DNA of 34,290 nucleotides from a virus, in the UHGV virus genome UHGV-1987335. One strand, 5' to 3'. Positions 26,701 to 29,700 of this stretch are shown here, piece after piece. Every line of letters starts with the position of its first letter. Position 1 is the first letter of the stretch. The position numbers are program-made.

Positions 26701-29700
26701 GTGGCGTGGTGCGTTGAGAATGACAGCCTGTTTTGCCTCACTGAGTTCCTTTTCCATTTCAGCCAACCTAGCCATAAAGCTATCCTGCTCAACCAGGTAA
26801 CCGCGATATTCCAGCGGTAGTACCGCCAGAATTGCCGGGGTCAGTTCACGCACGTTATTTCGGTATTTTTCAGAATCGAATTTGTTATCGAGGAAGCGGA
26901 ACAGCTTCTGGCGTGCACGGCTGACATCATCAGGGAAATCGATGGTGCCGCCGCCCTGCTCCCGATACTCATTCACAATGAGTGCGGCAACAACATCCTG
27001 ATTATCTGCAGCCGACCAGGCGCGGACGGCATCACGGATTTTTTCGTGGCCTGGAGCTTGTTTTGTTTGAGAACGATTTATCACCGCAGTCGGGCTAAAT
27101 CCGCTAGTCTGTTGGTATGTAAGTGGTTGCATAGTCATTGCCTTATCAGTTAACGCCGCAGTTTAGGCGGCAGAATTACTCGCGTTAAACAATGGTGCGA
27201 GGTCGGGACGAATATCTGCTGGTTTAATCTTTCCACCAGTGGCTGAGACAATTTTCATTACATAGCGGGCATCAATTCCGCCACCGTGTAGCCAACGCCA
27301 AACAGTGGGTTGGGCTACACCGCATAGATCTGCCAGTCGTTTTTGACTACCTGTAATACTGATTGCGAGTTGAATGGTTTGATTTGTCATTATCAATTCC
27401 TATTGGTATTGCAACGAATAAATAATAGCAATTCGTATTAATCATAACAATAGCAAAACGTGTTTTGACCATCAATACGCAAGCGTATAAATTAAAACTT
27501 ATGAAAAAAGAAACTCTTGCTGATCGCTTAAACCTAGCGATGGAACAATCTGGAATGTCTCAAGGCGCTCTTGCAAAGGCGTCTGGCGTAGCTCAACCCA
27601 CAATCTGGAGACTGACAAGCGGCAACGCGCGCGGCTCAACAAAAATTGTTGAAATAGCTAATGCATTGGGTGTTCGAACAGAGTGGCTCTCATCAGGCAT
27701 AGGCCCGATGAGAAATGACGGTCAACAATTAGGGAAGCCTACTGCCAACCATCCCAAATACTTCAAGATTGACGTTCTTGATATAGAAGTGAGTGCCGGG
27801 CCGGGAGTCATCAACCGTGAGTTTGTAGAAGTTCTACGCTCGGTTGAGTACTCGTTTGACGATGCTCGTCACATGTTCGATGGTAGGAAGGCAGAAAATA
27901 TCCGCATCATTAACGTGCGTGGTGACAGCATGTCAGGAACGATCGAACCAGGTGATCTGCTGTTCGTTGATATCACGGTTAAATCTTTCGACGGTGATGG
28001 CATCTATGCGTTTCTGTACGACGACACCGCCCATGTAAAGCGCCTGCAAATGATGAAGGATAAGCTGCTGGTTATCTCTGATAACAAGAGCTACTCACCG
28101 TGGGACCCGATCGAGAAAGACGAGATGAACCGGGTGTTCATCTTCGGTAAGGTTATTGGGAGCATGCCCCAGACGTACAGGAAACATGGATAATCAGTAC
28201 TGTGCTGATGAGTCGTTTAGGGGATAGTAAATTTAATTAGAATTAGACGAGAGCGATTTATGGATTGTGACGCTTTACAGGATATAAAAATCTCTCTTAG
28301 GTATGACGGAAAAGATGCTTTAAATCATGAAATAGATTTGAACTGCCTAGGAGAATCCCTAAAGGGTTTTTCTAAAGTTCTCTCAACAGCAGCTTCTTTC
28401 TCTGTTACACAAAAATATAGTAAATACATTAATTATCAAGAAGTTAAGGTTTACGCACGCGAAGCAAAAGCTAACTGCTTTACTCTTGAAGCAGTTCTTA
28501 ACTTCGCCACTCTGAACCAGTTGTTCTCGGGGATCGCCGCAACTATACTTGGCGCAATACTACAATATATTTTTGCGAGAAATTCTAACAAGAAAGATGA
28601 AATGAAAGCTTTGCAGCAGTCACTTGAAAAGGCCATAGAGGCACTAGGAAACAAGGATGCTGGAACCATTGATAAGTTGATCTCTTTGATTGACCGAATG
28701 GCTGTAGAGCTTCGCCCCTCTGTAAGGCAGGCAGTATCACCTATTGGTAATACTTGCGATCAGATAAGTGTTGCAACAAATGTTGACGGCTGCCTTCTAA
28801 AAGTTAACGAGAGAGATAAAGCTGAAATTGATAGGCTTGATGATGATGAAGTTCTCGGTCTTCGTGAGTATCGTGCTTTTCTTACAGAATTTGATGCACA
28901 AAATATGACAGCTAAAATAATTTTAGATGGTGATGACTCAAAAAAGAGAATCACTGCTGAAATTAGCGATCCAGCTGCAGGAAAGAAGAATAACCCGTAT
29001 ATTAGAGCTCTTAGTGCATATATATCAACCAAAGGTGATCCATCTGCAGTATTCACTATAACCGCAAAGGCTACTGTTAAAAAAGGCCAGATAAACAGGT
29101 TATTTATTGTAGATGCGAAATGATTTCCCCGGCCGTCGTGCCGGGTTTTCTTTTGCCTCCCCTCATCACACACCGTTCAAAAAACCACCACAACCTCCCT
29201 TCAGTTATCGCTATGCGATGCAAGTCACAAAATTAATTCTTTTTGCTATCAAACAGTTAATATCAAAACACATCAATCAATAGCTATAAGTATTGATACC
29301 ACCAATAGCAATGGATATTATTACCATGTCGCAACAACACAACGATACGGCAACCACCTGATTCACCGTTGCGATGACCGCTTAGATCCGCAGCTTGAAT
29401 TTCGGCAGGCTCCGGGGAGTGCGAGGGGTGAAACGGACGCGTGAACGTCGGTGTGACCAGCTGAAATCAACTCAACTCAACACCTCATACCTCAGTCGCT
29501 TCAACGAGGCGGCTTAGTTATGACAACCGGCGGCCATCCACCGCCTGAATACGCGCAGAAGTCTCTATATGTTCAGCAGCCCAGCTTACGGGTAGGAGTT
29601 TTTATGGTTCATCAACATTACGGAACGCAGACCGTTAATCGAGGTGCGGTCATGCCAGGAATGCTGGTCAAACACAAAGATGGTACCTGGACTGCATCAG

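What the first reader, a model, noticed from the sequence alone, without database searches (positions are those of the whole stretch)
29155..29603. Early-left promoter with a long structured leader and no N gene
A near-consensus promoter (TTGATA-17-TATTAT, 29293-29321) overlaps operator-like palindromes. The roughly 200-280-nt region before the first ORF has a GC-rich segment with hairpin potential (about 29380-29470) and no N-like ORF. The operon then runs straight into gam-bet-exo-xis-int. The phage must either tolerate termination or use an N-independent mechanism such as RNA-based antitermination like HK022 put elements. I cannot confirm a put-like fold by eye.
Basis: inference. Interest (0 to 1): 0.6.

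Follow-up and report, generated by a model that had tools for sequence, protein, structure and literature searches.

The report
N-less prophage early-left promoter and leader
This is the repressor-controlled early-left promoter of a very common E. coli lambda-like prophage that has no N gene and no HK022-type put RNA; its leader instead ends in a conserved, structured RNA module that is not in Rfam and whose function is unknown.

Summary
The promoter (TTGATA-17-TATTAT, 29293-29321), its two overlapping operators, the roughly 276-nt leader and the absence of an N gene are all real. This is pL/OL of a DLP12/Rac-like lambdoid prophage (Bievrevirus type). The same leader occurs in 2206 of 5426 complete E. 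coli genomes.

The "structured, put-like" reading fails. A put covariance model scores HK022 putL, HK022 putR and HK639 putL at 47-99 bits but finds nothing in the leader. Rfam gives no match. The GC-rich stretch 29380-29470 folds no better than shuffled sequence. There is no second (R) copy and no boxA.

The leader is a mosaic. About 160 nt are specific to this lineage. The last 120 nt (29487-29606) are a conserved RNA module with three hairpins, two of them supported by covariation, and a mini-ORF.

In N-encoding (phi80) and put-encoding (HK639-like) relatives, this module sits directly behind the first intrinsic terminator (40 of 42 contexts). In this lineage that terminator is absent (0 of 29).

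Best explanation: the antiterminator cassette and its terminator were lost together, so unmodified RNA polymerase reaches kil-gam-bet-exo. It then probably stops at a lambda-identical tL3-position hairpin. The module's function is unknown; it may be Rho loading or translation control.

The parts
29128..29155 (+). Intrinsic terminator (6-bp G+C stem plus T run) that ends the cI-moron transcription unit just upstream of pL
   Evidence: Homology among relatives with different upstream morons begins exactly here.
29278..29295 (.). Operator OL2-like site CAATAGCTATAAGTATTG, overlapping the -35 hexamer
   Evidence: 0 mismatches to CAATAGC-N6-TATTG. The same motif clusters at 27388-27465 (OR).
29303..29320 (.). 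Operator OL1-like site CAATAGCAATGGATATTA, overlapping the -10 hexamer
   Evidence: 1 mismatch; 25 bp from OL2, the same spacing as in OR.
29293..29321 (+). pL: sigma-70 promoter TTGATA-17-TATTAT. The start site is inferred at about 29328-29330.
   Evidence: 10/12. Relatives of two other immunity types carry their own -35/-10 pairs, 17 bp apart, at the same aligned place (read from the alignment: TTGACG-17-TTAAAT and TTGACT-17-TATTGT).
29328..29486 (+). Lineage-specific 5' part of the leader. It has a C-rich tract (29320-29370), a G-rich core (29390-29450) and a C-rich tract containing a (TCAAC)3 repeat (29467-29481). No significant fold and no homologue outside the lineage.
   Evidence: (z = +0.35 and +0.19). 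Homology in immunity type C starts at 29362.
29395..29517 (+). 40-codon TTG-start ORF with an arginine-rich stretch (KRTRERR). Judged non-coding.
   Evidence: A 5-nt indel splits it in 61 of 62 related unique sequences. One sequence type carries a stop. There are R>W and R>C substitutions and no third-position bias. No Pfam or PHROG hit. tblastn finds only the same 16 phages; 13 matches span the ORF and need two pieces, and 3 cover only residues 1-27.
29487..29606 (+). Conserved structured RNA module (5' UTR of kil), not in Rfam
   Evidence: CM R2 scores it at 131.8 bits, and it is the only copy in the window. There are 52 instances; 12 of 23 pairs have compensatory changes, 96.4% of cells are paired, and 0 of 500 shuffles reach this.
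29494..29514 (+). HP1: a 9-bp hairpin. The apical UUC/GAG is fixed and the basal six pairs covary. G-U pairs place it on the + strand RNA.
   Evidence: 21 unique variants, about 14 distinct stem sequences by my reading, all of which fold; helix 1 has 9 of 14 pairs changed on both sides and is 98.8% paired; all within-family polymorphisms keep pairing.
29520..29546 (+). AUG plus the first codons of a mini-ORF (MTTGGHPPP). Here it is in frame with kil. Elsewhere it ends in various frames and places.
   Evidence: The peptide beyond codon 9 is not conserved. A 2-nt deletion in L203 changes the frame (by my translation the peptide becomes MNRRPST...) while HP2 is kept.
29529..29545 (+). HP2: GGCGG-CCAUCCA-CCGCC, nearly invariant including synonymous positions
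   Evidence: one compensatory G-C to A-U change, one G-U, and a few mismatches.
29558..29574 (+). Conserved single-stranded motifs GAAGUCU and GUUC
   Evidence: They are read in different frames by the mini-ORF, so their conservation is not due to coding.
29579..29593 (+). HP3: a 4-bp hairpin immediately 5' of the kil Shine-Dalgarno sequence (AGGAG, 29594-29598)
   Evidence: two of four pairs switch C-G to G-C, in 10 and in 21 distinct sequences.
29604..29810 (+). kil (KilR-type FtsZ inhibitor), the first gene of the operon
   Evidence: PHROG 294, E = 1.7e-37. Annotated as Kil in phages 4A7 and Perceval.
31711..31733 (+). Hairpin identical to phage lambda at the tL3 position, just beyond exo. 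Probably the first strong stop for unmodified polymerase.
   Evidence: 9 pairs, 6 G-C; identical to lambda across the hairpin. Equating it with tL3 rests on position and my own knowledge. tL3 is used as a working terminator in vectors (PMC2532685).
32306..32334 (+). Second terminator-like hairpin with a long T run, upstream of the dksA-like gene, xis and int

Best explanation
The region is pL/OL, the repressor-controlled early-left promoter of a DLP12/Rac-like lambdoid prophage. Its left operon carries no antitermination device: no N gene, no nut site and no put RNA.

The 276-nt leader is a recombination mosaic. About 160 nt are specific to this lineage and have no significant fold. The last 120 nt are a conserved structured 5'-UTR module. 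In N-encoding (phi80) and put-encoding (HK639-like) relatives this module lies directly behind the first intrinsic terminator of the left operon (tL1).

In this lineage the antiterminator cassette and that terminator are both absent. Ordinary RNA polymerase starting at pL can therefore transcribe kil-gam-bet-exo without modification.

Further on, polymerase meets a lambda-identical hairpin at the tL3 position and a second terminator-like site before xis-int. These probably stop most transcripts, so termination is tolerated rather than suppressed.

Shown:
- the promoter and operator anatomy;
- the absence of N, put and boxA;
- the mosaic structure of the leader;
- covariation in the module;
- the link between presence of the terminator and presence of an antiterminator.

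Inferred:
- that unmodified polymerase really gets through the leader;
- that it stops at the tL3-position hairpin;
- that the C-rich module acts as a Rho-loading or translation-control element for kil.
For: - The promoter and its operators share a motif with OR.
- Three different immunity/promoter types join the same leader in 62 related unique sequences, with no ORF between pL and kil.
- No N family appears in any early ORF. The complete annotated genome of Perceval (about 96% identical here) has Q but no N.
- The put CM scores the controls at 99, 90 and 47 bits and finds nothing in the leader. Rfam finds nothing.
- No second copy of the leader and no boxA in the leader.
- Leader positions 29485-29560 are homologous to the sequence immediately after N/tL1A of phi80 and after the annotated terminators of HK639.
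- A G+C hairpin plus a run of 5 or more T lies just 5' of the module in 40 of 42 unique contexts outside the lineage, and in 0 of 29 contexts within it. In put phages, put lies 530-2150 nt upstream.
- The rightward operon (minus strand, 27420 to 18921) has only weak terminator-like hits.
- The hairpin just beyond exo is identical to lambda's.
Against: - No transcript data were available. Rho-dependent terminators cannot be predicted reliably, and the untranslated leader is C-rich at 29468-29545 (98.9th percentile of C minus G), so polymerase may not pass freely.
- If the tL3-position hairpin and the 32306 hairpin work, xis and int would be poorly expressed from pL. Yet these phages excise and grow, and no alternative + strand promoter of 9/12 or better was seen between 32330 and 32900.
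- N analogues can be unrecognisable. phi80 N falls in a PHROG of unknown function, and mEp021 keeps its N-like gene in the rightward operon (PMC11893012).
- The 160-nt lineage-specific segment is highly conserved, and its function is not explained.
Confidence: 0.6

Rival explanations
1. The leader encodes a new cis-acting antiterminator RNA unrelated in sequence to put. It could lie in the lineage-specific 160 nt or in the conserved two-hairpin part of the module. It would make polymerase resistant to the tL3-position hairpin, the 32306 terminator and Rho.
For: - The phage needs xis and int, which lie behind two terminator-like hairpins.
- The leader is long, untranslated and highly conserved across three immunity types.
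- HP1 plus HP2 form a two-hairpin unit of put-like size with strong covariation.
- Specialists assume put-like RNA by default for N-less lambdoids (PMC12315714).
Against: - No put match.
- No paralogous copy in the rightward operon, whereas put and nut come as L and R pairs.
- The module also occurs in phages that already have N or put, and there it lies downstream of tL1, which makes little sense for a primary antiterminator.
- The lineage-specific part folds no better than shuffled sequence, and its rare variants include pair-breaking changes.
Confidence: 0.1
2. The C-rich 3' leader and module form a Rho/NusG-dependent attenuator that keeps the toxic kil gene and the genes behind it low. Translation of the mini-ORF, which here runs in frame into kil, or high pL activity after induction would relieve it. 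This can coexist with the best explanation.
For: - C minus G is +16 over 29468-29545, the 98.9th percentile of all 78-nt windows on both strands.
- The phi80 record annotates a rho-dependent tL1B about 40 nt 3' of the module. The 1985 phi80 record maps its tL1 signal from HP2 onward.
- In the N-less Rac prophage, kilR is silenced through NusG; the paper cites Cardinale 2008 for suppression of foreign genes (PMC5793797).
- The mini-ORF carries a PPP motif, as do leader ORFs that govern Rho access in other leaders (my own knowledge).
Against: - The evidence is compositional only. HP1 and HP2 would sequester part of the C-rich RNA.
- The mini-ORF peptide and PPP are not strictly conserved.
- The Rac kilR leader is not homologous.
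Confidence: 0.3
3. A small, unrecognised N-like peptide is made from the arginine-rich ORF at 29395-29517 (KRTRERR) and acts as the antiterminator.
For: The stretch VKRTRERRCDQ resembles the arginine-rich motif of N proteins (resemblance from memory) and lies in the position of N.
Against: - TTG start.
- A 5-nt indel changes the frame in 61 of 62 related unique sequences. One sequence type has an in-frame stop. There are R>W and R>C changes, and variable sites are not biased to third positions.
- No family hit.
- tblastn at E up to 10 finds only the same 16 phages; 13 matches span the ORF and need two pieces, and 3 cover only residues 1-27.
- No boxA in the leader.
Confidence: 0.03

Closest known systems
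Phage lambda pL/OL-nutL-N early-left control region
   Same: A repressor-controlled sigma-70 promoter with tandem operators also found at OR. Same position after the cI operon, same orientation, and the same downstream gam-bet-exo-orf60a block (about 96% identical to lambda around the tL3 position).
   Different: No N gene, no boxA and no tL1. The whole N-to-cIII segment is replaced by a 276-nt leader and a KilR-type kil.
HK022 / HK639 put RNA antitermination
   Same: A lambdoid phage without N. The 3' part of the leader is homologous to sequence found in HK639-like put phages.
   Different: No put sequence or structure (CM). putL starts at +3 of the transcript and has a putR partner (PMC9378689); neither applies here. 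In put phages the shared module lies 530-2150 nt downstream of put and behind a terminator that is absent here.
phi80 N-tL1 region (M11919; JX871397 annotation)
   Same: Window 29485-29543 aligns with the phi80 sequence directly 3' of N and the rho-independent tL1A. The invariant TTATGACAACCGGCGGCCATCCACCG is present, along with a covarying hairpin.
   Different: The tL1A hairpin with its T run and the N gene are missing here. Homology starts at CATACCT, just after the T run.
Rac cryptic prophage racR-ydaS-ydaT / kilS-kilR region of E. coli K-12
   Same: YdaS/YdaT-type immunity region, a KilR-family division inhibitor in the left arm, and no N. kilR expression is held down through NusG (PMC5793797). 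An RNA feature (kilS sRNA) is annotated upstream of kilR.
   Different: No sequence or structure homology of the kilR leader or kilS to this leader or module. Rac has sieB, ydaF and ydaG between the repressor gene and kilR.
N-independent lambda variants (nin5-type deletions)
   Same: Independence from N through loss of terminators rather than gain of a new factor (my own knowledge).
   Different: nin5 removes rightward terminators in a laboratory mutant. Here a natural, widespread lineage lacks the leftward tL1 and N together.

Membership tests
HK022-type put RNA | An RNA of about 70 nt with two stem-loops and the conserved core (CGAACGGC ... GUCGG ... GGCGGG.UCAGGA.GA ... CAAU) | tested here: not met
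   CM R1, built from 12 putL/putR sequences, gives no hit in 29300-29610 with filters off and E up to 10. Controls score 99.4, 90.5 and 47.2 bits.
HK022-type put RNA | putL begins within a few nucleotides of the pL start site | tested here: not met
   The first 150 nt of the transcript (29328-29477) show no put match and fold no better than shuffles (z = +0.35). The feature is taken from PMC9378689.
HK022-type put RNA | A second, related copy (putR) downstream of pR | tested here: not met
   No put hit better than E = 0.24 anywhere in the window. No repeat of any leader segment on the pR transcript strand.
HK022-type put RNA | Activity depends on the zinc-binding domain of the RNA polymerase beta' subunit | not testable with these tools
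   Needs rpoC mutants and readthrough assays.
Lambda-type N/nut antitermination | An N protein (arginine-rich motif) encoded as the first gene after pL | tested here: not met
   No conserved ORF between 29328 and 29604. No Pfam or PHROG N family in any early ORF. The arginine-rich ORF is not conserved and matches no N. Perceval is annotated without N. Caveat: divergent N proteins can escape HMMs.
Lambda-type N/nut antitermination | boxA (CGCTCTTA or GCTCTTTA) in the leader, with a partner in the pR operon | tested here: not met
   Allowing 1 mismatch (3 for the 13-nt rrn boxA), there is no boxA in 29300-29603. The only + strand hit is inside kil, at 29742. There are scattered hits on the minus strand at 26894, 24182, 22890, 20166, 19446 and 17007.
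Lambda-type N/nut antitermination | A boxB hairpin (5-bp stem with a GNRA-like pentaloop) about 8 nt after boxA | not tested
   No systematic boxB scan was run. The hairpins seen by folding have other loop sizes.
Lambdoid pL/OL control region | A sigma-70 -35/-10 pair with about 17-bp spacing | tested here: met
   TTGATA-17-TATTAT, 10/12.
Lambdoid pL/OL control region | Tandem operators overlapping the promoter, with the same motif repeated at OR between the repressor and cro genes | tested here: met
   Sites with 2 or fewer mismatches cluster at 29278-29320 and 27388-27465, both with 25-bp spacing; three scattered matches at that stringency lie elsewhere. Over the whole window at 3 mismatches the count equals chance (29 against 31.6), so the clustering carries the signal.
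Lambdoid pL/OL control region | Lies after the repressor operon, reads in the same direction, and is followed by recombination, xis and int genes | tested here: met
Rho-dependent terminator (rut site) | An untranslated, C-rich and G-poor RNA stretch of about 80 nt | tested here: met
   29468-29545 has C minus G = +16, the 98.9th percentile. GC skew is -0.5 to -0.58 at 29460-29509.
Rho-dependent terminator (rut site) | Bicyclomycin-sensitive 3' ends downstream | not testable with these tools
   Needs Term-seq or in vitro transcription.
Any Rfam family | Score at or above the family's gathering threshold | tested here: not met
   Zero hits over the whole window. The best sub-threshold hit is ALIL on the opposite strand, 24.9 bits against a threshold of 50.

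The most novel reading that the evidence does not exclude
The leader of this very common N-less, put-less lambdoid lineage carries a new kind of cis-acting RNA. It would lie in the lineage-specific 160 nt, in the conserved HP1-HP2 module, or in both acting together. It would make RNA polymerase resistant to Rho and to the tL3-position and 32306 terminators, so that xis and int are reached. That would be a third solution to early antitermination in lambdoid phages, beside N/nut and put.
Probability: 0.1. Interest if true: 0.8.

Novelty: new variant of a known kind. Interest (0 to 1): 0.45.

Why it matters
Textbook lambdoid development depends on early antitermination, by N/nut or, in HK022, by put RNA. 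When no N is found, specialists currently guess "put" (PMC12315714). Here a lineage present in about 41% of complete E. coli genomes, with plaque-forming members such as Perceval and 4A7, has neither.

Comparative anatomy points to a simpler route: the antiterminator and the first terminator were lost together. This makes a concrete question testable. How far does unmodified polymerase travel from pL, and how are xis and int expressed?

The work also brings out a 120-nt RNA module, supported by covariation, at the start of the delayed-early genes of many lambdoid phages (phi80, HK225, HK639-like and Klebsiella phages). It is absent from Rfam and unannotated in RefSeq. It may control toxic kil-type genes.

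Tried and rejected
- **Rfam.** The gathering-threshold scan of the window found nothing. The permissive scan of 29100-29900 gave only a sub-threshold ALIL hit on the wrong strand.
- **Global and local folding of the leader.** No excess stability except in the 3' module.
- **put homology.** Rejected by the CM.
- **N remnant or N-like peptide in the arginine-rich ORF.** Rejected.
- **Homology of the 5' 160 nt to any fetched locus or phage record.** None found.
- **Repeat of the leader, or boxA, in the rightward operon.** None found.
- **More distant Kil loci** from Citrobacter, Kluyvera, Enterobacter and others. They lack the leader and the module.
- **Rac kilS/kilR leader.** Not homologous to the module.
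- **The mini-ORF as a conserved microprotein.** Rejected. Only the first 9 codons are kept, they are invariant even at synonymous sites, the reading frame and stop vary, and a frame-changing deletion in L203 leaves HP2 intact.
- **An anti-Shine-Dalgarno role for GAAGUCU.** Pairing is not consistent between variants (by eye only, not pursued).
- **King et al. 2011** (PMC3187212), which describes further put RNAs, is not held in the library. put relatives were collected by pattern scan instead.
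Full report
**What the window is.** The + strand of this window corresponds to the "leftward" direction of phage lambda. The gene order is:
- a cI-like repressor (27465-28193; the likely start is the ATG at 27501, matching the 230-aa protein annotated in 4A7);
- a DUF7946/DUF7947 moron (28260-29123);
- a clean intrinsic terminator (29128-29145 plus a T run);
- the finding region;
- a KilR-type kil (29604-29810), gam, bet, exo, orf60a/63/61-like genes, a dksA-like gene, xis and int.

On the other strand lie a YdaS-type cro, YdaT, O, P, ren, an emrE-like gene, a large serine recombinase, ninB, ybcO, rusA and Q. 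The closest phages are Perceval, 4A7 and 4C10 (genus Bievrevirus) and several PhiR phages, at 90-97% identity over 29126-29900. By my reading of the gene content, these are intact versions of the DLP12/Rac type of lambdoid prophage.

**The observation.**
- The promoter TTGATA-17-TATTAT at 29293-29321 is real and is the best match in the region (10/12). Consensus matches as such are no more frequent than chance (35 found against 35.9 expected in 20 kb), so the case for pL rests on context.
- Two 18-bp sites, 29278-29295 and 29303-29320, lie 25 bp apart and overlap the -35 and -10 hexamers.
- Their motif, CAATAGC-N6-TATTG, recurs at 2 or fewer mismatches with the same 25-bp spacing at 27388-27465, between the repressor and cro-like genes. 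Only three scattered matches at that stringency lie elsewhere.
- In an alignment of 62 related unique upstream sequences from IMG/VR, three unrelated promoter/operator types (three immunities) occupy the same aligned place, each with a -35/-10 pair 17 bp apart. All three join the same leader.
- The leader runs about 276 nt, to the kil start at 29604, which has a good AGGAG Shine-Dalgarno sequence.
- A G-rich, G+C-rich core at 29390-29450 exists.

The whole leader has z = 0.01. Positions 29328-29477 have z = +0.35 and 29380-29470 have z = +0.19 against dinucleotide shuffles. Within-lineage polymorphisms in the predicted hairpins of that part are mostly neutral, and two rare ones break pairs.

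**No N.**
- No conserved ORF lies between pL and kil.
- The 40-codon ORF at 29395-29517 has an arginine-rich stretch (KRTRERR) that looks like an N motif. However, it starts with TTG.
- It is split by a 5-nt indel in 61 of the 62 related unique sequences. The window alone has three TCAAC copies at 29467-29481.
- One sequence type carries a stop codon, and there are R>W and R>C changes with no third-position bias.
- It hits no Pfam or PHROG family.
- By tblastn at E up to 10 it finds only the same 16 phages. Thirteen of those matches span the ORF and need two pieces; three cover only residues 1-27.
- No early ORF on either strand hits an N family.
- The carefully annotated complete genome of Perceval has Q but no N.
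- Two caveats apply. phi80 N itself sits in a PHROG of unknown function. In mEp021 the N-like gene lies in the rightward operon (PMC11893012).

**Not put.** HK022 putL begins at +3 of the pL transcript. It is about 70 nt long, has two stem-loops, has a partner putR, and acts through the beta' zinc-binding domain of RNA polymerase (PMC9378689).
- I located putL and putR in HK022 and the annotated putL in HK639.
- I collected 67 unique putL-like sequences by a pattern scan.
- I aligned 12 diverse ones, recovered the classical two-stem structure with 7 covarying pairs, and built a covariance model.
- The model scores HK022 putL at 99.4 bits, HK639 putL at 90.5 and HK022 putR at 47.2.
- With filters off and E up to 10 it gives no hit in 29300-29610. 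The best hits in the window (E of 0.24 or worse) lie in structural genes.
- It finds nothing in 4A7, Perceval, HK225, KO-TP1 or phi80.
- Rfam gives nothing at gathering thresholds, and only a sub-threshold ALIL hit on the opposite strand.
- No segment of the leader is repeated on the rightward transcript, and there is no boxA in the leader.

**What the leader is.** It is a mosaic.
- Positions 29328-29486 occur only in this lineage. In immunity type C the homology starts at 29362.
- From 29485 on, the sequence is homologous to the stretch directly 3' of N and the rho-independent tL1A of phi80, to the stretch after the annotated terminators of HK639, and to HK225 and Klebsiella phage KO-TP1.

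Searching all fetched loci gave about 42 further unique contexts of this 3' part, mostly in put-type phages. It is a module of about 120 nt with this layout:
- CAUA;
- HP1 (29494-29514): 9 bp, with a fixed apical UUC/GAG, a 3-5-nt loop and six covarying basal pairs;
- UUAUG, the start of a mini-ORF (MTTGGHPPP);
- HP2 (29529-45): GGCGG-CCAUCCA-CCGCC, nearly invariant even at synonymous positions;
- the motifs GAAGUCU and GUUC;
- HP3 (29579-93);
- the Shine-Dalgarno sequence and start codon of whatever gene comes next (kil and at least six others).

Evidence for the structure:
- Folding each of 21 unique HP1 variants on its own gives a hairpin of the same type every time, with about 14 distinct stem sequences by my reading.
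- On a plain MAFFT alignment, HP2 and HP3 are 93.8% paired against 28-50% when the partner is slid.
- On a model-fitted alignment of 52 instances, 12 of 23 pairs show changes on both sides, 96.4% of cells pair, the covariation score is 0.419 against 0.136 for shuffles (0 of 500 reach it), and slid controls score 0.074 or less. A fitted alignment leans towards the model's structure.
- G-U pairs in HP1 place the structure on the + strand RNA.
- The mini-ORF is not a conserved protein. Its frame and stop vary, it is sometimes in frame with the next gene (as here with kil), and a 2-nt deletion in L203 changes the frame while HP2 is kept.
- The module occurs once in the window. It is absent from lambda, HK022, Rac and the more distant Kil loci.

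**The key comparison.** In 40 of 42 unique contexts outside this lineage, a G+C hairpin followed by five or more T lies immediately 5' of the module. Of the other two, one has a terminator-like hairpin in place of HP1. In the put phages, put lies 530-2150 nt further upstream. In 29 of 29 unique contexts of the window's lineage there is no such terminator, and homology begins just after where the T run would be.

So where an antiterminator is present (N in phi80, put in HK639-like phages), the first terminator is present too. Where neither N nor put exists, the terminator is also gone. For HK225 and KO-TP1 the antiterminator is not identified.

This is why I favour loss of the cassette together with its terminator over a new antitermination device. 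It resembles the logic of N-independent lambda deletion mutants (my own knowledge).

**Downstream.**
- The + strand carries a hairpin at 31711-31733 that is identical to lambda at the position of tL3, just beyond exo. Equating it with tL3 is my inference from position; tL3 is used as a working terminator in vectors (PMC2532685).
- A second hairpin with a long T run lies at 32306-32334, before the dksA-like gene, xis and int.
- The rightward operon up to Q shows only weak terminator-like hits.
- The likely picture is that unmodified polymerase expresses kil-gam-bet-exo and largely stops after exo.
- How xis and int are then expressed is the main gap in this account, and the best argument for the rival idea of a new cis antiterminator (about 0.1).

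**What the module may do.**
- The 78 nt at 29468-29545 are among the most C-over-G-rich in the window (98.9th percentile).
- The phi80 record annotates a rho-dependent tL1B about 40 nt beyond the module, and the 1985 record maps tL1 activity from HP2 onward.
- In the N-less Rac prophage, kilR is held down through NusG (PMC5793797), and an sRNA, kilS, is annotated upstream of kilR. It is not homologous to the module.
- A role in Rho loading or in translation control of the first delayed-early gene is therefore plausible but unproven (about 0.3, and compatible with the main explanation).

**Verdict.** The put-like interpretation is wrong. The "tolerates termination / N-independent" alternative is the better-supported one. 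The leader occurs at 80% or more coverage in 2206 of 5426 complete E. coli genomes and is unannotated there. The N-less, put-less arrangement and the conserved RNA module both deserve experimental follow-up. Interest is moderate.

Noticed in passing
window 29467-29481: The window has three tandem TCAAC units where 61 of 62 related unique sequences have two; one (L029) has a different 5-nt insertion at this site. This small repeat expansion in the leader also shifts the frame of the spurious arginine-rich ORF.
   Followed up: partly
window 28260-29123: The slot between the repressor gene and pL holds a DUF7946/DUF7947 protein here. Close relatives carry other cargo there (a hypothetical protein plus an ASCH-domain protein in 4A7; a hypothetical protein plus a transmembrane protein in Perceval). 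This is a moron or defence-like variable slot that ends at the shared terminator at 29128.
   Followed up: partly
window 29520-29810: In this lineage the conserved mini-ORF (MTTGGHPPP...) is in frame with kil and has no stop, so a 96-aa N-terminally extended Kil is possible. The PHROG Kil profile aligns slightly further into the extension (131.5 against 128 bits).
   Followed up: partly
L109:6850-6980: In one put-type phage, HP1 of the module is replaced by a terminator-like hairpin with a run of 7 T directly abutting the conserved UUAUGAC. HP2 shows the only fully compensatory change seen (G-C to A-U).
   Followed up: no
window 29449-29555 (minus strand): A sub-threshold Rfam match to the ALIL frameshift pseudoknot (24.9 bits against a gathering score of 50, E = 2.6e-4). 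It lies on the strand opposite the covarying hairpins and is probably driven by the HP2 palindrome.
   Followed up: partly
window 22434-24602 (minus strand): The nin region carries a large serine recombinase (ybcK-like) and an emrE/qacE-like gene, as in the DLP12 prophage and Perceval. Together with renD, ybcO, rusA and Q, this marks the prophage as an intact DLP12-type phage.
   Followed up: partly
L220:3406-3503 (E. coli K-12 Rac prophage): RefSeq annotates a small RNA, kilS, about 175 nt upstream of kilR in the N-less Rac prophage. It is not homologous to the module here, but it shows that RNA features upstream of kil-type genes recur.
   Followed up: partly
L087:2684-2980 (phi80 N): phi80 N falls in a PHROG labelled "unknown function" and has no arginine-rich N terminus. 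HMM libraries therefore cannot be relied on to exclude N analogues.
   Followed up: no
window 29380-29467: This stretch is among the most G-over-C-rich 78-nt windows of the whole 34 kb (about the 0.2-0.7th percentile). It is flanked by two C-rich tracts with which it can pair in the minimum-energy fold, although the fold is no more stable than shuffles.
   Followed up: partly
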